A model generated the notes under the pieces. That model ran no database searches and was not told where the DNA came from. It was given only the letters and a program-made list of their open reading frames with translations. From Vicinamibacterales bacterium (GTDB taxonomy: Bacteria > Acidobacteriota > Vicinamibacteria > Vicinamibacterales > UBA8438), in the NCBI GenBank assembly GCA_965243615.1, contig CBDEVO010000003.1, positions 4,058,471 through 4,122,470 on the forward strand: a DNA stretch of 64,000 bases, in the 5' to 3' direction. Position 1 is the stretch's first letter, and each line of letters opens with the position of its first letter. The translations under genes were made by a program, and so were the position numbers. Positions 16,992-56,143 of this stretch are shown here, piece by piece.

Positions 16992-18494
16992 GTGCCGAAC
17001 CCGACAGAGACCCTTCCCGAGAACATCGCCGCCGTCGACCTCGGCTCCAACAGCTTCCACATGCTCGTCGCCCGCACCAAGGGCGGTGAGCCGATCCTCG
17101 TCGATCGCCTGCGCGAGATGGTGCAGCTCGCTTCCGGCCTCGCCCCCGACGGACGCCTCAGCCCCGAGTCGCGCGACCGGGCCATCGAGTGCCTTCGACG
17201 GTTCGGGCAGAGGCTGCGCCACATGGATCCCAGCGAGGTCCGGGCGGTGGGCACCAACACGTTGCGGGCCGCGGTCGACGCTGGCGAGTTCCTGGTCGAC
17301 GCGGAGCGGGCGCTGGGACACTCGATAGAGACGATCTCCGGCATCGAGGAGGCCCGCCTGATCTTCCTCGGGGTGACGCGGACCCTGCCCGGGCCGCAAT
17401 CCCGGCGGCTGGTCGTCGACATCGGCGGCGGCAGCACCGAGCTGATCGTGGGTGACGAGGCCCCTCTCGACATGGAGAGCCTCTACATGGGCTGCATCAA
17501 CGTCAGCCGCGCCCATTTCGGCGACGGCCGGCTCACCCCCGAGAACTGGCGGCGGGCCGAGCTCGCCGCGTTGCAGGAGCTGGAGCCGGTCACCGGGCGC
17601 TTCCGCGCGATCGACTGGGAGGAGGCGGTCGGGGCCTCGGGGACCATCCGGGCCATCGACGGCCTCGTCCGCACCTACGGATGGAGCCGGAAGGGGATCA
17701 CGGCCGGCGCCCTGGGCAGGCTGCGCGAGGCCCTGCTGCGGGCGGGACGCGTCGGCCGGCTGAAGCTGGAGGGGCTGAACCCCAGGCGCAGGACGACCAT
17801 CGCGGGGGGGGCGGCGATCCTGTCGGCCCTGTTCGAGGCGCTCGGCATCGAGGTCATGCGACGCTCGGACGGGGCCCTGCGAGAGGGCCTGCTCTACGAC
17901 TCTCTCGGCCGGATCCGCGATCAGGACGTGCGCGAGCGGGGGGTCGAGGCCCTGGCGGATCGCGCGCACGTCGACCGGCAGCAGGCGGCGCGCGTGAAGC
18001 AGACGAGCCTGCTCCTGCTCGCCCAGGTGGCGGACGGCTGGGACCTCGGGAGCCGCAACGCGCGGCAGTTCCTGTCCTGGGCCGCGAACCTGCACGAGAT
18101 AGGTCTCGACATCGCCCACAACCACTACCACCGGCACGGCGAGTACATCGTCGCCCACGCCGACCTGCAGGGATTCTCGCTGCCCGAGCAGCAGGTGCTC
18201 GCGACCCTGGTTCGGTCTCACCGGCGCAAGTTCCCGAGCGAGGTCATCGCCGCCATCCCCCGGAACTGGTCGGCGTGGACCGAGCGGCTCGCGATGCCGC
18301 TGCGCCTGTCGGTGGTCCTGCACCGGAGCCGGAGTCCGCTGCCCCTCCCCCCGATCGAGCTCAGCGCCGCGAAGAACGCCCTGGACCTGCGGTTCCCCCC
18401 CGGGTGGCTCGACCAGCACCCCCTGACGCGGGCCGATCTGGAAACCGAGGCCACCTACCTCCGGGGAGCCGGCTACAAGCTGTCGTTCGGCTGA
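16992..18494 (+). CDS. ppx: Exopolyphosphatase Ppx/GppA
   Basis: The translation reads AAVDLGSNSFHMLVAR...VGTNTLR...GIEEARLIFLGV...VVDIGGGSTELI plus a C-terminal HD-like region. It is divergent from ppk across an 85-nt spacer. Confidence 0.95.
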   Translation: MPNPTETLPENIAAVDLGSNSFHMLVARTKGGEPILVDRLREMVQLASGLAPDGRLSPESRDRAIECLRRFGQRLRHMDPSEVRAVGTNTLRAAVDAGEFLVDAERALGHSIETISGIEEARLIFLGVTRTLPGPQSRRLVVDIGGGSTELIVGDEAPLDMESLYMGCINVSRAHFGDGRLTPENWRRAELAALQELEPVTGRFRAIDWEEAVGASGTIRAIDGLVRTYGWSRKGITAGALGRLREALLRAGRVGRLKLEGLNPRRRTTIAGGAAILSALFEALGIEVMRRSDGALREGLLYDSLGRIRDQDVRERGVEALADRAHVDRQQAARVKQTSLLLLAQVADGWDLGSRNARQFLSWAANLHEIGLDIAHNHYHRHGEYIVAHADLQGFSLPEQQVLATLVRSHRRKFPSEVIAAIPRNWSAWTERLAMPLRLSVVLHRSRSPLPLPPIELSAAKNALDLRFPPGWLDQHPLTRADLETEATYLRGAGYKLSFG

Positions 18495-38848: not shown

Positions 38849-38924
38849 GTCCCCATCGTCCAGAGGCCTAGGATTCAGCCCTTTCAAGGCTGAGACACGG
38901 GTTCGAATCCCGTTGGGGACGCCA
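38849..38924 (+). tRNA. tRNA-Glu (anticodon UUC), CCA encoded
   Basis: The sequence is GTCCCCATCGTCCAGAGGCCTAGGATTCAGCCCTTTCAAGGCTGAGACACGGGTTCGAATCCCGTTGGGGACGCCA. The acceptor stem is GTCCCCA/TGGGGAC and the anticodon arm is CAGCC-CTTTCAA-GGCTG. The T arm is ACGGG-TTCGAAT-CCCGT. It closely resembles the E. coli tRNA-Glu layout. Confidence 0.9.
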
Positions 38925-43722: not shown

Positions 43723-44487
43723 TCACCAGGGGAATATCTCGCGCAGTCGGCGGGCCTGCCGCCGGGACAGCGCCACCGTACCTGCGCCGGGGCACACGAT
43801 GGTGTACGCGCCCGCGTCGGCGGGCCGGATCTCGGCGATCCGGGCGAGGTTGACCAGACAGCCCCGGTGGGCGCGAAAGAACCGGCCCTCCAACTGGTCC
43901 TCGAGATCGGAAAGGGTGCGATCCACGAGGAACCGTGCGGCCGGGGTCCGGGCGAAGACGAGCGTGTCCTCCGCCTCGAACCACACGATCTCGTCCGGAT
44001 CGAGCAGCAGAATCCGCGAGCCGCGCCGGACGCTGATGCGGTCGGGCCGCGGTGCCGCGACGACGCCTCCGGCGACGGTTCGCCGCAGGGCGTCGAGCTC
44101 GTCGAGTATGCGCCGGGCCGGGCCGGCGGTGTCGATGCGCTCGCGGGCGCGCTCGAGGGCCTCGGCGAACCGCTCCCGTCCCACGGGCTTCAGCAGGTAG
44201 TCGATGGACCGCACCTCGAACGCCGGCACCGCGTAGCGGTCGTAGGCGGTGACGAAGATCACGTGCGGGACGTGGCCGACCCGCTCGAGGACGTCGAAGC
44301 CGGTGCCCTCGGGCATCCGCACGTCGAGGAAGCAGAGGTCGGGCGTGGTCTCGTCGATCAGCTTGACAGCCGCCTCGGCGTCGGCGGCCTCCCCCGCGAG
44401 CTCGAAGTCGGGATGCGCGGCAAGTAGCCGCTTGATCCGGTCGCGGGCAGGTTTCTCGTCGTCGATGACGACGCAGCGGCGGCTCAT
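43723..44487 (-). CDS. LytTR-family response regulator
   Basis: The receiver domain reads VVIDDEKPARDRI...DLCFLDVRMPEGTGFDV. The LytTR DNA-binding domain reads FEAEDTLVFART....FLVDRTLSDLEDQL...FFRAHRGCLVNL. Confidence 0.9.
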   Translation of the reverse strand: MSRRCVVIDDEKPARDRIKRLLAAHPDFELAGEAADAEAAVKLIDETTPDLCFLDVRMPEGTGFDVLERVGHVPHVIFVTAYDRYAVPAFEVRSIDYLLKPVGRERFAEALERARERIDTAGPARRILDELDALRRTVAGGVVAAPRPDRISVRRGSRILLLDPDEIVWFEAEDTLVFARTPAARFLVDRTLSDLEDQLEGRFFRAHRGCLVNLARIAEIRPADAGAYTIVCPGAGTVALSRRQARRLREIFPW

Positions 44488-45590
44488 GGCGCGCTCTCCG
44501 CGCGCCCGGACGGCGCCGGCGCGGCGGGCAGCGTGAGCCGCGCGCGCGCGCCGGCTCCGCGCGGGCCGGCGGACAGCGCGAGGGCCGCGCGCCCGCCGTA
44601 GGACGCCTGGAGCCGGCGGGCGATGTTGCCCAGGCCGTGGTCGTCGCGGACCAGGTCTTCCCCGTCGCCGGCGAGTCCGATTCCGTCGTCGATCACGTCG
44701 ATGCGCAGCACGCTGTCGTCGAGGGCGGCGGAGACGTCGATGCGGCCTCCGCGCGACCGCGGCGCGAGCCCGTGCCCGACCGCGTTCTCGACGAGGGGCT
44801 GGAGAATCAGACCGGGCACCCGCACCCGAAGCGAGTCGGGCTCGACGTCCCAGGCCACCCGCAGCCGGTCGCCGAAGCGGACCTGCTCGATGCGCAGGTA
44901 GCCCTTGGTGAAGGCGATCTCGTCGCGCAGGGCGACGGGCGCGGCGTCGGCCGCGGCGAACACGTAGCGGAAGAGGTCGGCGAAGGTCTCCAGCAGCTCC
45001 TCGGCCGTCCGCGCATCCTCCTCGACCATCGAGCCGATGGTGTTGAGGGTGTTGAAGAAGAAGTGCGGGTTGATGCGCGCCTGGAGCGCGGCCAGCTCGG
45101 CGCGGGCCGCCTCCTCGCGCAGCCGCGCCTCGACCAGCCGCACCTCCCGCATCTCGCGCAGGGCGTCCTGCAGCCGCAACCGCATCTCCTCGTAGCCGAG
45201 CACGACGCCGCCGACCACCAGGGCGAGGACGCTGTTGAGGACGACGACCCCGACCGCGAGGCGCGGCTCGCGGAAGACGAACAGTGGATAGGCCCCGAGC
45301 ACGGCCACGCTGCCCAGGCCCGCGCCCGACAGCAGGGCTACGACGAGCAGCGGAAACCGGAGCAGGCTCGAGCGTCCCCGCAGCCGCGGAAAGAGCCAGA
45401 CCGAACAGACCAGCGCGGTGAGGCCGACCACGTTGGCGAAGAGCACGGAGATCACCAGGATGGGGCGCTCGACGCCCTCCCCCTGGAACACGCTGACGCC
45501 GAGGCCGACGGCGAGGCCGGCGAGGCTGCAGGCCGAGATCCAGAACGCGGCGTGGCGACCGAGGCTTCGGGCCGGGCGCGAGCGGCTCAC
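44484..45590 (-). CDS. LytS-type sensor histidine kinase (His_kinase + HATPase_c) with a multi-TM sensor
   Basis: It has INPHFFFNTLNTIGSMV and LILQPLVENAVGHG, and GLGNIARRL. GTG 45588-45590 forms a GTGA overlap with the upstream gene, and ATGA joins it to the regulator at 44484-44487. Confidence 0.88.
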   Translation of the reverse strand: MSRSRPARSLGRHAAFWISACSLAGLAVGLGVSVFQGEGVERPILVISVLFANVVGLTALVCSVWLFPRLRGRSSLLRFPLLVVALLSGAGLGSVAVLGAYPLFVFREPRLAVGVVVLNSVLALVVGGVVLGYEEMRLRLQDALREMREVRLVEARLREEAARAELAALQARINPHFFFNTLNTIGSMVEEDARTAEELLETFADLFRYVFAAADAAPVALRDEIAFTKGYLRIEQVRFGDRLRVAWDVEPDSLRVRVPGLILQPLVENAVGHGLAPRSRGGRIDVSAALDDSVLRIDVIDDGIGLAGDGEDLVRDDHGLGNIARRLQASYGGRAALALSAGPRGAGARARLTLPAAPAPSGRAESAP

Positions 45591-46798
45591 CGCACCCTCG
45601 CGAGGACGAGGGTGACGTCGTCGTGGGCGTCGACGGGGCCGCTCCACCGCAGGAGGGCCTCGAGCACGGTGTCGATGATCGCCTCGAGGGGACGCGCGCG
45701 GTGCGCGTGCAGCAGATCGGCCAGCCTCTCCGCCCCGAACTCCTCGCCGTCGGGCGCCGGCGCCTCGGTGACGCCGTCGGTGAACAGCGCCAGCAGATCG
45801 CCGGGCACCAGTGTCCTGGCGCCGGTCTCGTAGGCCGCGCCCTCGAACAGTCCGATGGGCATGCCGCCGTCCTCGCAGCGCTCGGTGTCGCCTCCCCGGA
45901 CGAGGATCGCCGGCAGGTGCCCGGCGTTGGTGTAGGACAGGAGGCGCGTCTCGGGATCGAAGGTGGCGACGAACGCGGTGGCGTAGCGGGCGGCGGACGA
46001 CGAGCCGCACAACGCCTCGTTCAGGCCGGCTGCGAGCGATCCGGGGGTCCTCGCGGTCGGGAAGCGGCTGCGCATGGAGGCCTGCAGGTTGGCCATGAGG
46101 AGGGCGGCGGGGACTCCCTTGCCGGACACGTCGACGATGGCCACACCCAGCCGGCCGTCACCGTCCCGGAGGTAGTCGTAGAGGTCGCCGCCGACCGCGA
46201 TGGCGGGCCGGCAGACACCCGCCAGCTCCAGCCCCGCGACGTCGGGGACCTCGCGCGGCAGCAGCTCGCGCTGGACTTCCCGGGCCACCTTCAGCTCGCG
46301 CTCGAGCGCGTCCCGCTCCCGCAGGACCCGGTACGACGCCTCGATCTGGCGCCGCATCCGGTCGTAGGTTCCCAGGGCCACCGCGACCCCCGCCGCGAGC
46401 ACCGCGTTGAACGCGACGAGAAACAGGGCGGCCCGGGGCTGCGCGGCCACGTAGAACGGATCGGTGAAGATGACCAGGATCGAGCCGAAGATCGTGCCCG
46501 ACACGACGATCAGGGCCTCGAGCACGAGGCGCAGCCCCCCCGGCACGCGGGCCAGCAGCGGGAACACCACCCGGGCCGAGATGTACGCGCTGAAGCCGAC
46601 GACCTCGGCGAACAGCACGCTCAACCGCAGGACGGGGCCGAGATCGACGCCGGCCCCGAACGAGATGCCGGCCGCGAAAACCACGCCGACCCCGAGCCAC
46701 GCGGCGGTCCAGCCGGTGAGGAAGCGCCAGCCCGGAGCCGCCGCCTCGGCCGGTGACCGTGGACTCGGGGTCGGCGCCGCGGAAGGAGACGGAGTCAT
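45587..46798 (-). CDS. Membrane-anchored PP2C/SpoIIE-family phosphatase
   Basis: The C-terminal domain reads AREVQRELLP...AIAVGGDLYDY...AIVDVSGKGVPAALLMA...TNAGHLP...LFTDGVTEA...HDDVTLVLARV. The N-terminal TM block is homologous to that of the adjacent kinase. Confidence 0.88.
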   Translation of the reverse strand: MTPSPSAAPTPSPRSPAEAAAPGWRFLTGWTAAWLGVGVVFAAGISFGAGVDLGPVLRLSVLFAEVVGFSAYISARVVFPLLARVPGGLRLVLEALIVVSGTIFGSILVIFTDPFYVAAQPRAALFLVAFNAVLAAGVAVALGTYDRMRRQIEASYRVLRERDALERELKVAREVQRELLPREVPDVAGLELAGVCRPAIAVGGDLYDYLRDGDGRLGVAIVDVSGKGVPAALLMANLQASMRSRFPTARTPGSLAAGLNEALCGSSSAARYATAFVATFDPETRLLSYTNAGHLPAILVRGGDTERCEDGGMPIGLFEGAAYETGARTLVPGDLLALFTDGVTEAPAPDGEEFGAERLADLLHAHRARPLEAIIDTVLEALLRWSGPVDAHDDVTLVLARVR

Positions 46799-47435: not shown

Positions 47436-47777
47436 TCAGCCGAGCACGCCGGCGTAGCTGTCGGCGTCGAAGCCGACGAGCAGGGTCTTGCCGACCCGCA
47501 GCAGCGGCGCCCGCAGGTTGCCGGTGGCGCCGACCATGGCGTCCACCACCGCGTCGTCGGGCGCCCCGCGGGGCTTGAACTCCGCCACCTTCCGGCCCTT
47601 GGCGACGATGATGCGCGACGCCGCCTCGGCCAGCTCGCGGGCGTCGGTCCGGCCGAGCTTGCGGCTCGCCGGCACCCGTTCCTTCACGTCGATCCCGTTG
47701 GCCTCCAGGAACTTGGAGGCTCTGGAGCAGCTCGTTCAACCGGATCGGTGGTAGTACCAGTCGACCCTACTGCCCAT
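47436..47777 (-). CDS. ArsC/Spx/YffB-like thioredoxin-fold protein with an in-frame TGA (candidate selenocysteine, UxxC)
   Basis: The minus strand reads ATG(47777-47775) GGC AGT AGG GTC GAC TGG TAC TAC CAC CGA TCC GGT TGA(47738-47736) ACG AGC TGC. This translates as MGSRVDWYYHRSG-U-TSCSRASKFLEANGIDVKERV..., running into the 83-aa track ORF (...GNLRAPLLRVGKTLLVGFDADSYAGVLG). Confidence 0.6.
47701..47720 (-). promoter_or_regulatory. Candidate bacterial SECIS hairpin
   Basis: On the mRNA, GCCUCC-AAGUUCCU-GGAGGC starts 15 nt after the UGA, and the apical loop contains GU. An alternative CUCCAG/CUGGAG pairing (47729-47703) is also possible. Confidence 0.45.
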
Positions 47778-48777
47778 CGTTCGCCGCCGCCTTCTCGACC
47801 GCCCGGGCCCCGGTCAGCGTGCCGTCCATGCCGTAGTTGCCCTCGTGGCACGCGTACTCGAACAGCGGGAGGTCGCTCAGCCGCATCGGGAGCTCCACCG
47901 ACCACGGCTGCGTCCACGTCGTGGGGTCCGTCACCGTGAACGAGTAGAGCAGCACGTCGTCGCTCATGCGCCGGAACCGCTCGACGAGATGGAGGTTCTC
48001 GCTCGAGTTGCGGAAGCTGGTCTCGCGCAGGAAGTTCTTCGTCTCGACGACCAGGGTGTCGCCGTCCCAGTGACCGCGGGACACGCCGGTCCACATCGGC
48101 ACGGTGCCGTGGCCGCTGCCGTCGAGGGGGACGATGCGGGCGTTGTGCACCATCTCGTTGAGTATCACGACGTGGTCGGCGGTCTGGAAGATCTGCACGT
48201 TCATGTTGTAGGCGGCGGGCAGCATCGGCGGCCCCGAGTTGAACCCGGTGATGCACCGCTCGCCGAGAGGCCGGTCCTCCGGGCCCCACGACGGCCGCTG
48301 GTTGACGCGCAGGCGCTCGGCCGCCCGGGCCTCGGCCGCCTCGGTCAACGCCGGCACCCGGCCGTTCGGGGGATCGACGACGAGCGAGGTCCGGCGGGTC
48401 TCGACGACGGAGTCGCCGCGGTCCCACCAGAAGTCGTTGTAGGCGAGGGCGAGGTCGCGGCTTTCGCGGGTGCCGTTCACCTCTCCCCGGGCGGTCGTCT
48501 CGAGCTTGCGGGCCTCCCGGTCGCGGTCGGCGTTGCTCTCCCGCACGCGCTCGGCGGCGTAGGCGGAGACCTCCTCCTCGGAGAGGAACGCCTGGTCCGC
48601 GAACTCCTCGGGACGCTCGAGGGGGGTCACGGTCCGGAAGTCCCAGACGCCGCTGATGTCGGGGTGCCCGTCGGGGGTGCGCAGGATCTCGCTCCCGGAC
48701 TGGGCGGCGGCCGGGGCCGCGAGAGACAGCGCGAGCGCGGCGCTGCCCGCGAGCACGGCGATGGTTCGGATGTTCAT
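47767..48777 (-). CDS. Exported protein, unnamed family (paralog 1 of 4; C-terminal EYACHEGNYG motif)
   Basis: The signal peptide is MNIRTIAVLAGSAALALSLAAPAAAQ, and it carries the shared motifs listed in the findings. An alternative GTG start lies at 48789. Confidence 0.8.
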   Translation of the reverse strand: MNIRTIAVLAGSAALALSLAAPAAAQSGSEILRTPDGHPDISGVWDFRTVTPLERPEEFADQAFLSEEEVSAYAAERVRESNADRDREARKLETTARGEVNGTRESRDLALAYNDFWWDRGDSVVETRRTSLVVDPPNGRVPALTEAAEARAAERLRVNQRPSWGPEDRPLGERCITGFNSGPPMLPAAYNMNVQIFQTADHVVILNEMVHNARIVPLDGSGHGTVPMWTGVSRGHWDGDTLVVETKNFLRETSFRNSSENLHLVERFRRMSDDVLLYSFTVTDPTTWTQPWSVELPMRLSDLPLFEYACHEGNYGMDGTLTGARAVEKAAANDGQ

Positions 48778-48989
48778 GGTCTTCGTCACCTCTGATGAAA
48801 GACGGCGTCTACCCGCAACGCGGGGTACTCCTGGCTACCGTTCGAACGAGCTTTCCCGTTGCCGGATCGGACTTCGGCTCGACCGATTCGGTTCGCGTCG
48901 GCTGCTCCCGGTCTCCTCAAGCTCGGCGAACGCCGAGATGAAGGGCTTCGTCGAGGCGATCGTGAACGACCGCCTCGGTGCATTCCTCC

Positions 48990-50036
48990 CTACTGCCCCG
49001 CCTCGGCCGCGGCTTCCTGCACCCGCGCGCCGGCGAGGATGTTGTAGAGGCCGTAGTTGCCCTCGTGGCAGGCGTACTCGTACATCGGCTGCTCGTTCAA
49101 CACCATCGGCACCTCGTAGGTCCACGGCCTCGACCAGACGGTCGGGTCGTCGATCGTCGCCTCGTAGTTCAGGACTCCGGGCGACACCCGGGTGAAGCGC
49201 TCGGTGAGGCGGAGGTTCGCATCGGTCGAGCCCGAGCGGAAGCTCGTCTCGCGCAGGAAGTTGGCCGTCTCGACGACGAGGGTGTCCCCCTCCCAGTGCC
49301 CGCGGGAGTCCCCCTGCCACTGCGGCAGATCGATCTCCGCCCGCCCGTCGAGGGGAACGATGCGCACGTTGTGGTTCATCTCGTTGAGCAGCGCCACGTG
49401 GTCGGGGGTCTGGAAGATCTGCACGTTGTTGTTGTAGCCCCCCGGGGTCATCGGCGGACCCGCGTTGAAGCCGGTGATGCAGCGAAGCTGCAGGCCGTTG
49501 GCCCCGAGGTCCTCGACCCAGCCGCCCGGCGTCGGCGAGTGGTTGTCGACGCCCTCCCGCGCCGCGCGCAACGCCGCCTGCCGCTCGGCCGCCTCTGGGA
49601 CCAGCGCCGGGATCTTGCCGTCCGGCGGGTCGACGACCAGCGACGTGCGCCGCGTGCCGACGGTGGTGGTGCCGCGGTCGAGCCACAGGTTGTTGTAGAA
49701 GCCGGGGGCCCCCTCCTCGCCGCGGTCGACGCTCGCGGTGACCTCCGTTCTCACGGCGGGGCGATTCAGGAGCTCCTCGTTGCGGGCCAGGGTCTCCTGC
49801 TCCAGGTTCGCGGCCTCCTCCTCGCTGAGGAAGGCCCGGTCGCCCAGATCGTCGGGACGCTCCATCGGCGTGATCGAGCGGAAGTCCCAGACGCCCTGGA
49901 TGTCGGGGGCGCCCCACGCGGTCCGCGGCACCGCCTCGTCGGCGCCCTGACCGGCGGCGACGGCCGGGGCCAGCATTCCCAAGGCGACGGCGACGGCGAT
50001 CGCCCGACCCGTTGCGGCGCGGTTTCGATGGTTCAT
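48990..50036 (-). CDS. Exported protein, unnamed family (paralog 2 of 4)
   Basis: The start is ATG 50034-50036 (MNHRNRA), preceded by GAGGAGGG. It has a signal peptide and full-length similarity to the other three copies. Confidence 0.85.
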   Translation of the reverse strand: MNHRNRAATGRAIAVAVALGMLAPAVAAGQGADEAVPRTAWGAPDIQGVWDFRSITPMERPDDLGDRAFLSEEEAANLEQETLARNEELLNRPAVRTEVTASVDRGEEGAPGFYNNLWLDRGTTTVGTRRTSLVVDPPDGKIPALVPEAAERQAALRAAREGVDNHSPTPGGWVEDLGANGLQLRCITGFNAGPPMTPGGYNNNVQIFQTPDHVALLNEMNHNVRIVPLDGRAEIDLPQWQGDSRGHWEGDTLVVETANFLRETSFRSGSTDANLRLTERFTRVSPGVLNYEATIDDPTVWSRPWTYEVPMVLNEQPMYEYACHEGNYGLYNILAGARVQEAAAEAGQ

Positions 50037-50112
50037 GTCACCCTCCTCGGTCCACTCGGATGGATACGCATGATCGCCCACTTCGGCGGCCGGACGCAAG
50101 GCGCCCGGGGCG

Positions 50113-51456
50113 TCAGTAGTCGGCCGCATCGAGCGAGAAGCTGACGATCTCCTCGTCGTTCCGGGTGAGGACGTGCCGGTTGGCGTAGGCGGGATGGACC
50201 CAGCTCACGTTGCGCAGCTCCCGGCGGTTGCCGGGGTTGGAAGTCGGCGCGATCAGTTGCGTGCGGCTGATCTCCTCGTAGCCGGCCGGACTCAGCCGCG
50301 AGATGATCAGCTCGCCCCGGTCGTTGTTGATGAACACGCGGTCCCGGTTCTTGACCATGAACCCCGAGACCCAGCGGCGCCGCTCGACCGTGGCCTCCTG
50401 CGTCTCCCAGATGCGCTCGCCGGTCTCGGCGTCCAGGCAGCGGAGCTGGCCGTAGCTGCAGATGCCGTAGATGTACCCGCCGTCGATGATGGGCGTGGCG
50501 AGCACCGCGTGCAGCCCCTCGGTGCGGATCTCGCTGTTGCTGCTCCCCTTCCACTCGATGGTCGCCGCGGGGCGGTCCTGGTTGAGGGCGAGCATCATCG
50601 GGCCGTCGTAGAACGTGGTGAAGAAGAGCCGGGCCCCCACCTGCACGGGCACCGCGACGGTCATGGCGCCGCCCACGACGTACGGCTGCCGCCAATAGAC
50701 GTCGCCCGTCACCGGGTCGAGCGAGGCGACCTCCTCCGGGTCCCAGACGATGAGCTGCCGCGCCCCGCCCGCCTCGATGATGATGGGCTGCGCGACCCCG
50801 AGGTCGGCCTCGCTCGGCAGGGCCCGCCAGATCTCCTCCCCCGTCATCTTGTCGAAGGCGACGACGCGGGCGTCGGGCGGGCCGCCGACGAGGCAGATGA
50901 GCCGCTCGCCGTCGACCAGCGGCGCGCTCGCGAAGCCCCAGTCGAAGCCCCACCGCATGCGGTCGACGCCGTAGTCCTCGGCGTAGCGTTTCCGCCACAG
51001 GAGCTCGCCGGTGTCGACGGCCAGGGCCGACATCACGCCGGTGCGCCCCAGGACGTAGACGCGGTCGCCGTCGACGGTCGGCGTCGCCCCCGGCCCGATC
51101 TCCCACTGGATGCCCGCGTAGTCGGCCTCCCACGACCGGGTCCAGAGAATCTCGCCGGTCGCCTCGTCGAGGGCGAGGGCCCGCTCGACCCCGCGCATGC
51201 CCTGTTGCGGCTCCCAGTCGGTGACGAACACGCGGCCGTCGGCCACCGCGGGGCCGGAGTAGCCGGCCTTGACGGGGGTGCGCCAGCGCGCCCTGAGCCC
51301 CTCGTCGGGGAACGCGCGGAGGATGCCCGTCTCGTTCCACACCCCGCGGCGCCCCTCTCCGCGGAACTCGGGCCAGTCTTCGGCCGCCACCTCCGCCGCG
51401 CCGCCGGCCAGCCAGGCCGCGCAGGCGACGATCGCAGTCAGTCTCGCGCAGGTCAT
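50113..51456 (-). CDS. PQQ-like / BamB-like beta-propeller repeat protein, exported
   Basis: After the signal peptide it reads WPEFRGEGRRGVWNETG. It then has repeated D..TGE.LW and V.G..VY.. blades (ALDEATGEILW, AVDTGELLW, FDKMTGEEIW, LDPVTGDVYW, LDAETGERIW). Confidence 0.8.
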   Translation of the reverse strand: MTCARLTAIVACAAWLAGGAAEVAAEDWPEFRGEGRRGVWNETGILRAFPDEGLRARWRTPVKAGYSGPAVADGRVFVTDWEPQQGMRGVERALALDEATGEILWTRSWEADYAGIQWEIGPGATPTVDGDRVYVLGRTGVMSALAVDTGELLWRKRYAEDYGVDRMRWGFDWGFASAPLVDGERLICLVGGPPDARVVAFDKMTGEEIWRALPSEADLGVAQPIIIEAGGARQLIVWDPEEVASLDPVTGDVYWRQPYVVGGAMTVAVPVQVGARLFFTTFYDGPMMLALNQDRPAATIEWKGSSNSEIRTEGLHAVLATPIIDGGYIYGICSYGQLRCLDAETGERIWETQEATVERRRWVSGFMVKNRDRVFINNDRGELIISRLSPAGYEEISRTQLIAPTSNPGNRRELRNVSWVHPAYANRHVLTRNDEEIVSFSLDAADY

Positions 51457-53663: not shown

Positions 53664-54677
53664 CTACCGGCCGCTTTCCGCCGCCCCCGCTTCCTGCACC
53701 ACCGCGCCGGCGAGGATGTTGTAGAGCCCGTAGTTGCCCTCGTGGCAGGCGTACTCGAACAGCGGCTGGTCGTTCTTCACCATGGGGATCTGGTAGCTCC
53801 AGGGCCGGTCCCAGGCGCCCGGATCGTTAACCGTCACCTGGTACATCAGCGTGCCCTCGGACACCCGGGTGAACCGCTCGACGAGGTGCAGGTCGGCAGT
53901 GGTCACGCCGCCCCGGAAGCTCGTCTCGCGCAGGAAGTTGGTCGTCTCCACCACCAGGGTGTCGCCCTCCCAGCGACCCCGCGAGTCGCCCATCCACTGC
54001 CGCACGCCGTCGTCGAGGTTCGGCCGCCCGTCGAGCGGGATCACGCGCGAGCTGTGCACCATCTCGTTCAGCAGGACCACGTGGTCCTCGGTCTGGAACA
54101 CCTGGAGGTTCTGGTTGTAGCCGCCCGGCGTCATCGGCGGGCCGGTGTTGAAGCCGAGGATGCAGCGGACCGCGAACATGCCCGGCCCGAGGTCCTCGAC
54201 CCAGCCGCCGGGGGTCGGCGAGTGGCGGTTGACGCCGGCCCGCGCCTGCTGCTCCGCCTCCCGTCGCGCCGTCGCGGCCGCCGACAGGGGCGGCACCCGG
54301 CCGTCGGGCGGGTCCGTCACCAGCGACGTCTGGCGGGTCTCGCTGACCCGGTTGCCGGGGTCGAACCAGAACTGGTTGTAGTTGCCGACCACGTCGGCCG
54401 GCTCCTGGTCGTCGCGCACCGCGAACGCCGCGAGGCGATCGGCCTCGAACTGCGCCGCCTCCTCGGGCGTGAACACCGCCTGATCGGCCAGCGCCTCGGG
54501 CCGCTCGAACGGGGTCAGGGTGCGGAAGTCCCACACGCCGTTGAGGTCCGGGGCGCCCCAGGCGGTCCGGGGGGCCGCGTCGTCGGCCGCCGGCTGGGCG
54601 ACCGCGCCCGGCGCGAGAACGCCGGCCGCGAGAACGAGCACCGCACACGCCGCCGCCGCATATCGCTGGATGGCCAC
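53664..54677 (-). CDS. Exported protein, unnamed family (paralog 3 of 4)
   Basis: GTG 54675-54677 is preceded by a strong AGGGAGGAAG Shine-Dalgarno, although the ORF extends to 54716. This copy is closest to paralog 2: both contain HSPTPGGWVEDLG. Confidence 0.85.
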   Translation of the reverse strand: MAIQRYAAAACAVLVLAAGVLAPGAVAQPAADDAAPRTAWGAPDLNGVWDFRTLTPFERPEALADQAVFTPEEAAQFEADRLAAFAVRDDQEPADVVGNYNQFWFDPGNRVSETRQTSLVTDPPDGRVPPLSAAATARREAEQQARAGVNRHSPTPGGWVEDLGPGMFAVRCILGFNTGPPMTPGGYNQNLQVFQTEDHVVLLNEMVHSSRVIPLDGRPNLDDGVRQWMGDSRGRWEGDTLVVETTNFLRETSFRGGVTTADLHLVERFTRVSEGTLMYQVTVNDPGAWDRPWSYQIPMVKNDQPLFEYACHEGNYGLYNILAGAVVQEAGAAESGR

Positions 54678-54828
54678 GGGGCTTCCTCCCTGGTTCCGTT
54701 TACGGTTCCCCTTCAACTGTCGACCGGCGCATGATCGCTCCGATGCCCGCGGCCGTCAACCCGGCCGGGTCAGGGAGAGGGCCCGGCAGGCGTGAGGACA
54801 TCGAACCGGCAACGTGTAAGCTTGGTGC

Positions 54829-55108: not shown

Positions 55109-56143
55109 ATGCAGGCACGTCCCATCGCCGCGCTCGGCATGTTGCTCATCGTCTCGCTCATCGCCGGCCCGGCGCGCGGTCAGGCCCCGCGGCTGCCCGA
55201 CGGGCGGCCGGACCTGCAGGGGGTGTGGGACTTCCGCACCATGACGCCGCTGCAGCGGCCCCAGATGATGGCCGATCGGGAGTTCCTGACGGAGGAAGAG
55301 GCCGCGACCCAGGAGAACCGGATCGCGGCGTTCCGGGCCAGCCAGCTCGAGCCGAGCGAGGTGCGGACCGAGCCGCTGCCGGCCGGTGGCGGAGGCCGCG
55401 CGGTGGGCGGGTACAACGACTTCTGGCTCGACTACGGCACGACCGTCGTCGAGGACCGCCGCACCTCGCTCATCGTCGACCCGCCGGACGGTCGGCTGCC
55501 CGCCCTGACCCCCGAGGGCGAGGCGCTCCGCCAGGTAGGCTCGCTGATCGAGGACCTGCCGATTCCGCTGCCGGTGCGGGTCCGCAGCGCCGGCACCGGC
55601 GCCGACCGGCCCGAGGACCGCGGCCTCGCCGAGCGCTGCCTCGTCGGGTTCAACAGCGGCCCGCCGATGATGCCGAGCGGCTACAACAACAACATGCAGC
55701 TCTTCCAGACCGCGGACACCGTCGCGATCCTGAACGAGATGGTGCACGACCTGCGGGTCATTCCCCTCGACGGCCGCCCGCGGCTCCCGGAGGGCATCCG
55801 CCAGTGGGCGGGCAGCTCGCGGGGGCACTGGGAGGGCGACACCCTGGTGGTCGAGACCACCAACATGACCGACAAGACGGGCAGCTTCGACCCGTCGGCC
55901 ACCACCGCCATCGGCACCGGCCTGACCGTCACCCTGACGGAACGGTTCACCCGCCTCGACGGCGACACCCTGCTCTACGAGTACACGGTGGACGACCCCG
56001 TCATCTTCTCGCGGCCGTTCACCGTCGCGGTGCCGATGCGGCGGTCCGACGAGCCGATGTTCGAGTACGCCTGCCACGAGGGCAACTACGGCCTGCTCAA
56101 CATCCTGAGCGGCGCCCGCGCCGAGGACGCCGCCGCCCGCTGA
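55109..56143 (+). CDS. Exported protein, unnamed family (paralog 4 of 4)
   Basis: ATG 55109 is preceded by ACGGAGGG. The signal peptide is MQARPIAALGMLLIVSLIAGPARGQ, and the shared motifs are present. Confidence 0.85.
   Translation: MQARPIAALGMLLIVSLIAGPARGQAPRLPDGRPDLQGVWDFRTMTPLQRPQMMADREFLTEEEAATQENRIAAFRASQLEPSEVRTEPLPAGGGGRAVGGYNDFWLDYGTTVVEDRRTSLIVDPPDGRLPALTPEGEALRQVGSLIEDLPIPLPVRVRSAGTGADRPEDRGLAERCLVGFNSGPPMMPSGYNNNMQLFQTADTVAILNEMVHDLRVIPLDGRPRLPEGIRQWAGSSRGHWEGDTLVVETTNMTDKTGSFDPSATTAIGTGLTVTLTERFTRLDGDTLLYEYTVDDPVIFSRPFTVAVPMRRSDEPMFEYACHEGNYGLLNILSGARAEDAAAR

What the first reader, a model, noticed from the sequence alone, without database searches (positions are those of the whole stretch)
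47436..47777. In-frame TGA at the CxxC cysteine position of an ArsC/Spx-like gene, with a hairpin just downstream: candidate selenoprotein truncated by the ORF track
The ORF track lists only an 83-aa ORF (47436-47687) that starts at an internal GTG.

Reading the minus strand upstream in the same frame gives ATG GGC AGT AGG GTC GAC TGG TAC TAC CAC CGA TCC GGT TGA ACG AGC TGC TCC AGA GCC TCC AAG TTC CTG GAG GCC AAC GGG ATC GAC GTG AAG. This translates as MGSRVDWYYHRSG-[TGA]-TSCSRASKFLEANGIDVK.

That restores the beta1 strand, the redox motif and helix 1 of an ArsC/Spx/YffB-type thioredoxin fold. The TGA (47738-47736) sits where the first Cys of CxxC normally lies, which would give UxxC.

Fifteen nt after the UGA, the mRNA can form GCCUCC-AAGUUCCU-GGAGGC. 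This is a 6-bp GC-rich stem whose apical loop contains GU. The distance and loop content match what bacterial SECIS elements require.

The ATG overlaps the stop of the upstream exported-family gene by 11 nt, so the two genes look co-translated. UxxC thioredoxin-fold selenoproteins, including arsenate-reductase-like ones, are an established class. This particular gene would be missed or truncated by standard callers.
Basis: partly seen in the sequence, partly recalled or inferred. Interest (0 to 1): 0.75.

Follow-up and report, generated by a model that had tools for sequence, protein, structure and literature searches.

The report
Miscalled ArsC-family selenoprotein gene with SECIS
A small redox-protein gene in a soil Acidobacteriota (Vicinamibacterales) genome reads an in-frame TGA as selenocysteine with the help of a conserved RNA hairpin. 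It belongs to an already catalogued selenoprotein family, so it is a correct annotation fix rather than a discovery.

Summary
On the minus strand, 47777-47436 is one 113-codon gene, MGSRVDWYYHRSG-TGA-TSC..., with an in-frame TGA at 47738-47736. ORF callers cut it to 83 aa.

With U read as C, it matches NCBIfam NF041106 "ArsC family (seleno)protein" end to end (109.9 bits, cut-off 85). A 2026 review lists this family as "Arsenate reductase-like protein, UxxC".

All 80 related loci from GTDB genomes, spanning at least seven phylum- or class-level lineages, carry TGA at this column. More distant full-length homologs carry Cys there.

The hairpin at 47720-47701 meets every published bacterial SECIS criterion. 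It pairs in 91% of cells across 76 sequences and shows compensatory changes (G-C, C-G, G-U, A-U at one pair). Its synonymous sites are frozen. Three Cys-type homologs lack its loop G, and two have lost the hairpin.

Fifteen Vicinamibacterales copies, the window's included, are intact with a single TGA and evolve under purifying selection. TGA is the usual stop codon in this window.

I could not test whether this genome encodes selA, selB, selC and selD. The substrate is unknown.

Verdict: a real selenoprotein gene and a new member of a known kind. Interest is low.

The parts
47436..47777 (-). Full selenoprotein gene: 113 codons plus stop. The start is ATG 47777-47775 and the terminal TGA stop is 47438-47436.
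   Evidence: Translation. Full-length match 1-107/107 to NF041106 at 109.9 bits, cut-off 85. Collinear with 80 or more homologs.
47736..47738 (-). In-frame TGA at codon 14, read as selenocysteine. It is the first residue of the U-T-S-C redox motif.
   Evidence: TGA at this column in all 80 genome loci, plus L001-L003 and L089. Cys at the same column in full-length homologs. It aligns with Cys10 of Spx.
47727..47729 (-). TGC at codon 17, the resolving Cys of the UxxC motif.
   Evidence: Cys in 77/77 distinct sequences, as TGC 51 and TGT 26.
47701..47720 (-). Bacterial SECIS hairpin at nt 19-38 counted from the U of UGA. The 5' arm is 47720-47714, the loop AGUUCC is 47713-47708 and the 3' arm is 47707-47701.
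   Evidence: Fold results; the hairpin alone is -11.7 kcal/mol. 91.3% of cells pair against 25-43% for slid controls, and pair 21-36 reads GC37/CG21/GU8/UG2/AU1. Synonymous sites are frozen. bSECIS criteria are from PMC13188914.
47712..47712 (-). Conserved loop G (nt 27 after the U of UGA), followed by U. This is the presumed SelB contact.
   Evidence: G in 81/81 Sec-type genes, in 3/3 more and in L089. It is A, A and C in the three Cys-type homologs.
47436..47687 (-). The truncated 83-aa ORF reported by ORF callers. Its start is an artefactual internal GTG at 47687-47685.
   Evidence: It scores only 63.3 bits on NF041106, below the cut-off. The internal starts chosen in relatives differ.
47767..47777 (-). 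11-nt overlap between the selenoprotein ATG and the end of the upstream exported-protein gene (47767-48789).
   Evidence: Conserved in 13 of 14 Vicinamibacterales relatives.

Best explanation
47777-47436 (minus strand) encodes a 113-residue cytoplasmic thiol/selenol redox protein of the ArsC/Spx/YffB superfamily. It is a member of NCBIfam NF041106, 'ArsC family (seleno)protein'.

Proposed mechanism of decoding: codon 14 (UGA) is decoded as selenocysteine. As the ribosome reaches the UGA, the hairpin 15 nt downstream is bound by the SelB-GTP-Sec-tRNA(Sec) complex, which delivers Sec instead of letting release factor 2 terminate. The hairpin has a 7-bp stem and the loop A-G-U-U-C-C, and the loop begins 22 nt after the UGA. 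The same gene's terminal UGA has no such hairpin and terminates normally.

Proposed chemistry: the product carries a U14-T-S-C17 motif after strand beta-1, at the start of helix alpha-1. It most likely cycles between a selenol/thiol form and a selenenylsulfide form to reduce an as yet unknown substrate.

Shown here: the gene structure, family membership, the Cys/TGA pairing, conservation of the TGA, RNA-level selection on the hairpin, and the fold. Inferred: actual Sec insertion, SelB binding and the redox chemistry.
For: Family membership: NF041106 matches full length at 109.9 bits against a cut-off of 85, while the truncated ORF scores 63.3.

TGA conservation: TGA sits at the same column in all 80 best GTDB genome loci, from Acidobacteriota, Myxococcota, Gammaproteobacteria, Planctomycetota, Opitutales, Spirochaetaceae and Binatia. 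Flanking residues are conserved on both sides.

Cys homologs: ten full-length homologs have Cys there. Four database entries with W were flagged as likely TGA read with genetic code 4; this was confirmed on the DNA of one, P0025.

bSECIS criteria from PMC13188914 are all met. The loop is 6 nt (allowed 3-9). The stem is 7 bp (allowed 4-16). G is the second loop base and is followed by U. The spacing is 22 nt (allowed 16-37). The hairpin energy is -11.7 kcal/mol (threshold -7.5).

Covariation: 91.3% of cells pair, with 0/500 shuffles reaching the score. Pair 21-36 uses five pair types, and column 21 is a synonymous Ala third position.

Synonymous freeze inside the hairpin: Ser+7 is TCC in 71/71, Lys+8 is AAG in 60/60 and Leu+10 is YTG only. 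The same amino acids elsewhere in the gene use 2-6 codons.

Cys-type controls: the loop G is absent in 3/3 and the hairpin is lost in 2/3.

Within Vicinamibacterales: 15/15 copies are intact with one TGA. pN/pS is 0.37 upstream of the TGA and 0.29 downstream of the internal GTG.

Stop-codon usage: TGA ends 20 of 26 confident long ORFs in the window, so there is no genome-wide reassignment.

Linkage to machinery: a genuine selB (TIGR00475, 278 bits against a cut-off of 242) lies about 7 kb from the gene in another Acidobacteriota MAG, L042.

Fold: PDB profile hits to Spx, YffB and ArsC-like proteins at E about 1e-7, with U aligned to Spx Cys10. An AF2 model of a 61%-identical Cys homolog has pLDDT 91.7, and its top Foldseek hits are Spx and ArsC-family structures.

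Literature: the family is listed as a selenoprotein.
Against: No selA, selB, selD or tRNA-Sec was found in the 64-kb window or in the 20-kb loci of the Vicinamibacterales relatives. This covers about 1% of a genome, so it says little either way.

The window's own genome is not in the searchable collections.

The single-sequence fold is not significant.

No Rfam family matches the hairpin.

Pfam ArsC (PF03960) scores 20.6, below its gathering score of 24. Structural similarity to Spx/ArsC is only moderate, with TM about 0.55.

No experiment shows Se incorporation for any member of this family that I could find.
Confidence: 0.93

Rival explanations
1. The TGA is a real stop. The functional product is the 83-aa protein starting at the internal GTG (47687), and the upstream similarity is a remnant.
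For: The ORF list gives only this ORF. Public databases hold the relatives as 79-96-aa proteins.
Against: The internal starts differ between close relatives, giving 79, 83, 85 and 96 aa, so no start is conserved. The 83-aa product lacks strand beta-1, the redox motif and helix alpha-1, and scores below the family cut-off. The 13 codons upstream of the TGA are under purifying selection (pN/pS 0.37) and are conserved across phyla.
Confidence: 0.02
2. It is a decaying pseudogene of a Cys-type ArsC-like gene in which TGC mutated to TGA.
For: One nucleotide separates TGC from TGA. No Sec machinery was seen in the window.
Against: TGA is present in 80/80 genome loci across at least seven phylum- or class-level lineages, with no other lesion. 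A dedicated hairpin is conserved through compensatory changes. Synonymous sites are constrained only in Sec-type genes.
Confidence: 0.01
3. The UGA is read through, but not as Sec. Options are near-cognate Trp or Cys insertion, or a lineage-wide UGA reassignment. On this reading the hairpin only stimulates read-through.
For: Sec insertion itself is not demonstrated. Sec machinery is not verified for this genome.
Against: TGA is the dominant stop codon in the window, ending 20 of 26 long ORFs, and it also terminates this gene. The hairpin matches the SelB-type bSECIS model, including the loop G-U. The column is the catalytic Cys of a CxxC motif, the classic Sec position. A selB gene lies near the gene in L042.
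Confidence: 0.03
4. The conserved hairpin is a by-product of conserving the peptide A-S-K-F-L-D/E-A, not an RNA signal.
For: The hairpin lies wholly in coding sequence, and the peptide is highly conserved in Sec-type genes.
Against: Synonymous third positions inside the stem and loop are invariant, while the same amino acids elsewhere vary freely. The synonymous third base of the Ala codon (column 21) co-varies with the third base of the Asp/Glu codon (column 36). In Cys-type homologs the same peptide is variable (AEAFL, VNGFL, ASAFL, ADAFL and others), and the hairpin or its loop G is lost.
Confidence: 0.01

Closest known systems
NCBIfam NF041106 'ArsC family (seleno)protein'. This is the 'Arsenate reductase-like protein, UxxC' of PMC13188914 and PMC9312934, and probably the 'Arsenate reductase 2 (cd03032), UxxC' of the GOS selenoproteome (PMC2398784).
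   Same: Full-length HMM match above the curated cut-off. U-x-x-C motif at the same position. About 113 aa. Cys-containing homologs exist. A SECIS hairpin lies just 3' of the UGA.
   Different: Nothing of substance. This copy is in Vicinamibacterales, where public records hold the orthologs as truncated unnamed ORFs. Its start overlaps an exported-protein gene by 11 nt, a clade-specific arrangement.
Spx (Bacillus subtilis; PDB 1Z3E, 3GFK, 6GHO) and YffB (PDB 1RW1), of the ArsC/Spx/YffB superfamily (Pfam PF03960).
   Same: Glutaredoxin-like beta-alpha-beta core. The CxxC-type motif is at the N-terminus of helix 1, with U aligned to Spx Cys10 and C17 to Cys13. It has a conserved R-x-P motif (GNLRAP here, against LLRRPI in the Spx chain aligned).
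   Different: It has Sec instead of Cys. It falls below Pfam's gathering score (20.6 against 24). TM is only about 0.55. The model places a helix, a beta-hairpin and a second helix (H43-52, E55-60, E63-68, H74-80) in the central region between the N-terminal core and the C-terminal strands; from my own knowledge, Spx and ArsC have a helical subdomain there. There is no evidence of RNA-polymerase binding.
Arsenate reductase ArsC of plasmid R773 / E. coli (glutaredoxin-coupled), and the Sec-containing 'Arsenate reductase (ArsC) 1, UxxS' family (TIGR00014).
   Same: Same superfamily, with the nucleophile at the equivalent N-terminal position.
   Different: That family has a single nucleophile (UxxS or CxxS) and matches TIGR00014. 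The window protein has UxxC, and TIGR00014 does not appear among its hits. Only one of the catalytic arginines I recall for R773 ArsC (Arg60, Arg94, Arg107; from my own knowledge) has an evident counterpart, R89. Arsenate reduction is therefore not supported.
Bacterial SECIS elements, such as the E. coli fdhF SECIS and the bSECIS consensus model of Zhang and Gladyshev.
   Same: A hairpin inside the coding sequence just 3' of the UGA, with a small apical loop whose G-U sits in the first positions. Spacing and stability fall within the model's ranges.
   Different: The sequence is family-specific (consensus GCSUCCARGUUYYUGGASGC). There is no Rfam model for it. No lower stem or bulged U is evident.

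Membership tests
NF041106 ArsC family (seleno)protein | Score at or above the curated NCBIfam cut-off over the full model | tested here: met
   109.9 bits against a cut-off of 85, model positions 1-107 of 107, with U replaced by C.
NF041106 ArsC family (seleno)protein | U/C-x-x-C motif after strand beta-1, with Cys in non-Sec homologs at the TGA column | tested here: met
   G-U-T-S-C in the window. G-C-T-x-C in 10 full-length homologs. TGA in 80/80 genome loci.
NF041106 ArsC family (seleno)protein | Selenium actually incorporated at residue 14 | not testable with these tools
   This needs 75Se labelling or mass spectrometry.
Bacterial SECIS (bSECIS consensus model, PMC13188914 Fig. 2 legend) | Apical loop of 3-9 nt and upper stem of 4-16 bp | tested here: met
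   6-nt loop AGUUCC and 7-bp stem.
Bacterial SECIS (bSECIS consensus model, PMC13188914 Fig. 2 legend) | G in one of the first two loop positions, usually followed by G or U | tested here: met
   The loop is A-G-U-U-C-C. The G is invariant in all Sec-type genes and absent in 3/3 Cys-type genes.
Bacterial SECIS (bSECIS consensus model, PMC13188914 Fig. 2 legend) | 16-37 nt between the UGA and the apical loop, and MFE of -7.5 kcal/mol or lower | tested here: met
   22 nt, and -11.7 kcal/mol for the hairpin alone. 73 of 81 Sec-type homologs are at or below -7.5.
Bacterial SECIS (bSECIS consensus model, PMC13188914 Fig. 2 legend) | Structure maintained by selection (covariation) | tested here: met
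   91.3% paired against 25-43% for slid controls. 44 cells have a change on both sides, and 0/500 shuffles reach the observed score. Synonymous sites are frozen.
Bacterial SECIS (bSECIS consensus model, PMC13188914 Fig. 2 legend) | Binds SelB and directs Sec insertion | not testable with these tools
   This needs binding or reporter assays.
Sec-decoding trait of the host genome | selA, selB, selD and tRNA-Sec (selC) present in the same genome | not testable with these tools
   None was found in the 64-kb window or in the relatives' 20-kb loci. Indirect support: selB lies near the gene in the Acidobacteriota MAG L042, and the Sec trait is documented in Acidobacteriota (PMC12013277; PMC1794560).
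ArsC/Spx/YffB superfamily (Pfam PF03960) | Pfam gathering score | tested here: not met
   20.6 bits against 24. Superfamily-level homology is nevertheless supported by profile hits to the PDB (E 6e-8 to 2e-7, full length) and by Foldseek top hits with probability 0.97-1.0 and TM about 0.55.
Glutaredoxin-coupled arsenate reductase (ArsC R773 type) | Catalytic Cys plus an arginine triad, and arsenate reductase activity or ars-operon context | tested here: inconclusive
   Only one invariant Arg (R89) is seen. No ars genes are nearby, and no neighbour is conserved across phyla. TIGR00014 is not among the hits.
Spx/MgsR RNA-polymerase-binding regulators (TIGR01617) | Family score, and residues that contact the RNAP alpha C-terminal domain | tested here: not met
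   28.1 bits against a cut-off of 75.05.

The most novel reading that the evidence does not exclude
In Vicinamibacterales this selenoprotein may have been recruited as the cytoplasmic redox partner of a clade-specific, expanded family of uncharacterised exported proteins of about 340 aa. That family has a conserved C-terminal EYACHEGNYG motif, four copies in the window, and no Pfam or NCBIfam match. The selenoprotein is translationally coupled to one copy by a conserved 11-nt overlap. Separately, the NF041106 family may be a structurally distinct branch of the ArsC/Spx fold, with a helix-beta-hairpin-helix central region, and may have a substrate unrelated to arsenate or to transcription control.
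Probability: 0.12. Interest if true: 0.4.

Novelty: new member of a known kind. Interest (0 to 1): 0.2.

Why it matters
The practical value lies in annotation. In this soil lineage (Vicinamibacterales), public records hold the gene as unnamed fragments of 79-96 aa that lack the active site. Some metagenome entries carry a spurious Trp at the Sec position.

Recognising the gene restores a redox-active selenoprotein. It also implies that these abundant soil Acidobacteriota use selenocysteine.

The family-wide alignment gives an unusually clean example of a coding-region SECIS, with compensatory changes, frozen synonymous sites, and relaxation in the Cys-type relatives. It could serve as a covariance model for finding or checking such genes.

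It does not change what is known about selenoproteins. The family, the motif and the mechanism are already described.

Tried and rejected
1. Exact-sequence look-ups of the window's 340-aa neighbour and of the 83-aa ORF found nothing on record, so the source genome could not be retrieved.

2. ARAGORN found no tRNA-Sec in the window or in 81 loci.

3. tblastn with E. coli SelD, SelA and SelB against the window and all loci gave only the L042 selB and a weak L054 hit. The L054 hit proved to be a DgaE-type SelA relative, not SelA.

4. Rfam gave no SECIS family. A weak htlv_FSE hit (21.7 bits against 45) on the hairpin is a chance match to a GC hairpin.

5. Single-sequence folding statistics were not significant and were not used as evidence.

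6. A scan of the window for other in-frame TGAs flanked by high-GC3 coding sequence returned only S/R/T-rich antisense-frame artefacts, so no second selenoprotein is evident.

7. Neighbour clustering across 80 loci found no partner gene conserved across phyla. Synteny is confined to Vicinamibacterales.

A 61%-identical Cys homolog, P0015, was modelled instead.

9. I decided not to spend a 13-CPU-hour protein search on the L042 SelB fragment. The 120 best hits would almost certainly be relatives of that low-GC lineage, not Vicinamibacterales.

10. No paper in the library links Vicinamibacter to selenocysteine decoding.

Full report
OBSERVATION

The minus strand from 47777 to 47436 reads ATG GGC AGT AGG GTC GAC TGG TAC TAC CAC CGA TCC GGT TGA ACG AGC TGC ... 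This translates as MGSRVDWYYHRSG*TSCSRASKFLEANGIDVKERV...DSYAGVLG*.

The in-frame TGA is at 47738-47736. The mechanical ORF list reports only the 83-aa ORF 47436-47687, which starts at an internal GTG.

The ATG overlaps the upstream gene (47767-48789, TAG stop) by 11 nt. Third-position GC in this frame is 0.94 over the whole gene and 0.83 over the first 30 codons, clearly above the other frames.

ViennaRNA gives GCCUCCA-AGUUCC-UGGAGGC, with 7 bp and a 6-nt loop, beginning 15 nt after the UGA. In 72% GC DNA its energy is not unusual, with z-scores of -0.36 and -0.73. The single sequence therefore proves nothing about the hairpin.

WHAT THE PROTEIN IS

With Sec written as Cys, the 113-aa product matches NCBIfam NF041106 'ArsC family (seleno)protein' over the whole model (1-107 of 107) at 109.9 bits, against a curated cut-off of 85. 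The truncated 83-aa ORF reaches only 63.3 bits. Pfam ArsC (PF03960) is sub-threshold at 20.6 against 24.

A profile of the family hits solved structures of a putative arsenate reductase (2M46), Spx (1Z3E, 3GFK, 6GHO) and YffB (1RW1) at E 6e-8 to 2e-5 over residues 8-112. The Sec column aligns with Cys10 of the Spx C10-x-x-C13 motif.

An AlphaFold model of a 61%-identical Cys-type homolog (P0015) is confident, with pLDDT 91.7. It begins with strand E4-10, the redox motif, and helix H15-26. Its best Foldseek matches in the PDB are Spx, ArsC-family and YffB structures with probability 0.97-1.0, but TM is only about 0.55. So the core fold is shared and the middle of the protein is divergent.

COMPARATIVE EVIDENCE FOR THE TGA

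A protein search shows a telling pattern. The closest relatives, at 80-95% identity, are nearly all stored as fragments of 75-96 aa. More distant full-length relatives of 112-119 aa carry DWYYHRxG-C-TxC.

Four 'full-length' entries carry W at the column. I fetched the DNA for one of them, and it has TGA there (L089).

A scan of one genome per GTDB species found at least 595 relatives. I examined the best 80 loci. They come from Vicinamibacterales and other Acidobacteriota, Myxococcota and 'Deltaproteobacteria', Gammaproteobacteria, Planctomycetota, Opitutales, Spirochaetaceae and Binatia.

All 80 have TGA at this column. The motif DWYYHRxG-U-TSCxRASKFL is conserved on both sides, down to about 55% protein identity.

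Record titles place the window in Vicinamibacterales; the best match is 96% identical. Within that order, all 15 copies, including the window's, are intact 113-codon ORFs with a single TGA. pN/pS is 0.37 for the 13 codons before the TGA and 0.29 for the part that callers keep.

The internal starts used by callers differ between genomes, giving 79, 83, 85 and 96 aa, so they are artefacts.

TGA terminates 20 of 26 confident long ORFs in the window, and it also terminates this gene. Recoding at codon 14 must therefore depend on local context, not on a genome-wide reassignment.

COMPARATIVE EVIDENCE FOR THE SECIS

I aligned the 60 nt from the UGA in 76 distinct Sec-type genes. Positions 19-26 pair with positions 31-38 in 91.3% of cells. 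When the 3' partner is slid by 1-3 nt, pairing falls to 25-43%. None of 500 shuffles reaches the observed pairing or covariation score.

Pair 21-36 reads G-C in 37 sequences, C-G in 21, G-U in 8, U-G in 2 and A-U in 1. Column 21 is the synonymous third base of an Ala codon, and column 36 is the third base of the Asp/Glu codon. Protein-level selection cannot explain that coupling.

Synonymous sites are frozen exactly inside the hairpin:
- Ser+7 is TCC in 71/71 sequences, while Ser+2 and Ser+24 use 5-6 codons.
- Lys+8 is AAG in 60/60, while Lys+18 is 24 AAG and 19 AAA.
- Leu+10 is only CTG or TTG, while Leu+27 is mostly CTC.

The published bSECIS constraints (PMC13188914) are a 3-9-nt loop, a 4-16-bp stem, G in the first two loop positions followed by G or U, 16-37 nt from the UGA to the loop, and MFE of -7.5 kcal/mol or lower. 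The window element meets all of them. It has a 6-nt loop, a 7-bp stem, the loop A-G-U-U-C-C, a spacing of 22 nt, and an energy of -11.7 kcal/mol.

The loop G (nt 27, window position 47712) is present in every Sec-type gene examined.

As a control I fetched the DNA of three Cys-type homologs, with TGT or TGC at the column. All three lack that G, having A, A and C. Two have lost the hairpin. One keeps the stem but has an AUUC loop.

At protein level, the peptide ASKFL(D/E)A is nearly invariant in Sec-type genes. In Cys-type genes it is variable: AEAFL, VNGFL, ASAFL, SQGFL, ADAFL and others.

SEC MACHINERY

The window contains only a tRNA-Glu. It has no match to E. coli SelA, SelB or SelD. The same holds for the 20-kb loci of the Vicinamibacterales relatives. 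Together this is about 1% of a genome of 4.4-7.2 Mb, so it is uninformative.

The source genome is not in the exact-match collection. The genome-level test therefore remains open.

Indirect support comes from three sources:
- In another Acidobacteriota MAG (L042), a genuine selB lies about 7 kb from its copy of the gene. It scores 278 bits on TIGR00475 against a cut-off of 242, from the first 247 residues alone.
- The Sec trait is documented in Acidobacteria (PMC1794560; Occallatibacter riparius in PMC12013277).
- Maintaining the TGA, the hairpin and an intact ORF across 15 genomes of the order, most of them GTDB species representatives, is hard to reconcile with the absence of decoding.

CONTEXT

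In Vicinamibacterales the gene sits in a conserved block. The order is a PQQ/BamB-like beta-propeller gene, two paralogous exported proteins of about 340 aa, the selenoprotein gene, a small lipoprotein-like ORF, and then SpoIIE-type phosphatase, histidine kinase and LytTR response-regulator genes.

The 11-nt overlap with the upstream exported-protein gene is conserved in 13 of 14 relatives. Outside this order no neighbour is conserved. Context therefore gives no general clue to the substrate.

MECHANISM AND COMPARISON WITH KNOWN SYSTEMS

The best-supported reading is standard bacterial Sec insertion. SelB bound to Sec-tRNA(Sec) recognises the hairpin's apical G-U as the ribosome decodes UGA-14. 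The result is a U14-x-x-C17 redox protein of the ArsC/Spx superfamily.

This is the same kind of thing as the families listed as:
- 'Arsenate reductase 2 (cd03032), UxxC' in the GOS selenoproteome, with 42 Sec and 238 Cys sequences (PMC2398784).
- 'Arsenate reductase-like protein, COG1393, UxxC' (PMC9312934).

It is not demonstrably an arsenate reductase. It has no ars context, only one conserved Arg, and a UxxC motif rather than UxxS. It is not an Spx regulator either, scoring 28 bits on TIGR01617 against a cut-off of 75. According to the 2026 review, the functions of such bioinformatically identified selenoproteins remain largely uncharacterised.

VERDICT

The gene is a genuine selenoprotein gene that ORF callers miss or truncate.

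It is a new member of an already curated family. The mechanism and motif are textbook for bacterial selenoproteins. Interest is low (0.2).

The residual uncertainty, about 5-7%, is whether this particular genome decodes Sec. One HMM and tRNA scan of the full genome would settle that.

Noticed in passing
window 47767-48789 (-), 48990-50129 (-), 53664-54755 (-), 55190-56113 (+): Four paralogs, 48-60% identical, of an exported protein of about 340 aa. Each has a signal peptide and a conserved C-terminal motif (F/Y)EYACHEGNYG, and none has any Pfam or NCBIfam match. Five or more copies occur per 20 kb in related Vicinamibacterales genomes. One copy overlaps the selenoprotein start by 11 nt.
   Followed up: partly
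L042 17166-17912 (in-frame TGA at 17541-17543): In an Acidobacteriota MAG, a genuine selB (TIGR00475, 278 bits) lies about 7 kb from its copy of the selenoprotein gene. That selB itself contains an in-frame TGA (RELA-TGA-LEVRELV). This could be a sequencing error, a pseudogene or something else; I did not resolve it.
   Followed up: partly
L086 154-492 (Cys-type homolog P0015, TGT): This Cys-type gene still has a perfect 8-bp stem at the SECIS position (GCGUCCAG/CUGGACGC, -13.8 kcal/mol) but has lost the loop G, so its loop is AUUC. It looks like a recent Sec-to-Cys conversion, or a pre-SECIS state.
   Followed up: partly
proteins P0001-P0024 and P0025, P0044, P0046, P0050 (database entries): Public protein collections hold the Sec-type genes either as unnamed N-terminally truncated ORFs with inconsistent starts, or as full-length products with Trp at the Sec position. 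I flagged the four W entries as likely TGA read with genetic code 4, and confirmed TGA on the DNA of P0025 only (L089).
   Followed up: yes
model m0c3cfd899f05 (P0015), residues 43-80: The AF2 model places a helix, a beta-hairpin and a second helix in the central region. From my own knowledge, Spx and ArsC have a helical subdomain there. TM to the best PDB hits is only about 0.55, so NF041106 may be a structurally distinct branch of the superfamily.
   Followed up: no
window 44484-46798 (-) and 50113-51456 (-): The flanking block conserved in the clade has a SpoIIE/PP2C-type phosphatase, a histidine kinase (with a LytTR regulator in relatives) downstream, and a PQQ/BamB-like beta-propeller protein upstream.
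   Followed up: no
window 38849-38924 (+): tRNA-Glu (UUC) is the only tRNA in the window. The same tRNA lies about 8 kb from the gene in relatives L009 and L015, which supports synteny.
   Followed up: no
L054 14177-14929 (-): A SelA-related PLP-enzyme fragment lies about 4 kb from the selenoprotein gene in another Acidobacteriota MAG. It is DgaE-like (TIGR01437) and is not SelA.
   Followed up: yes
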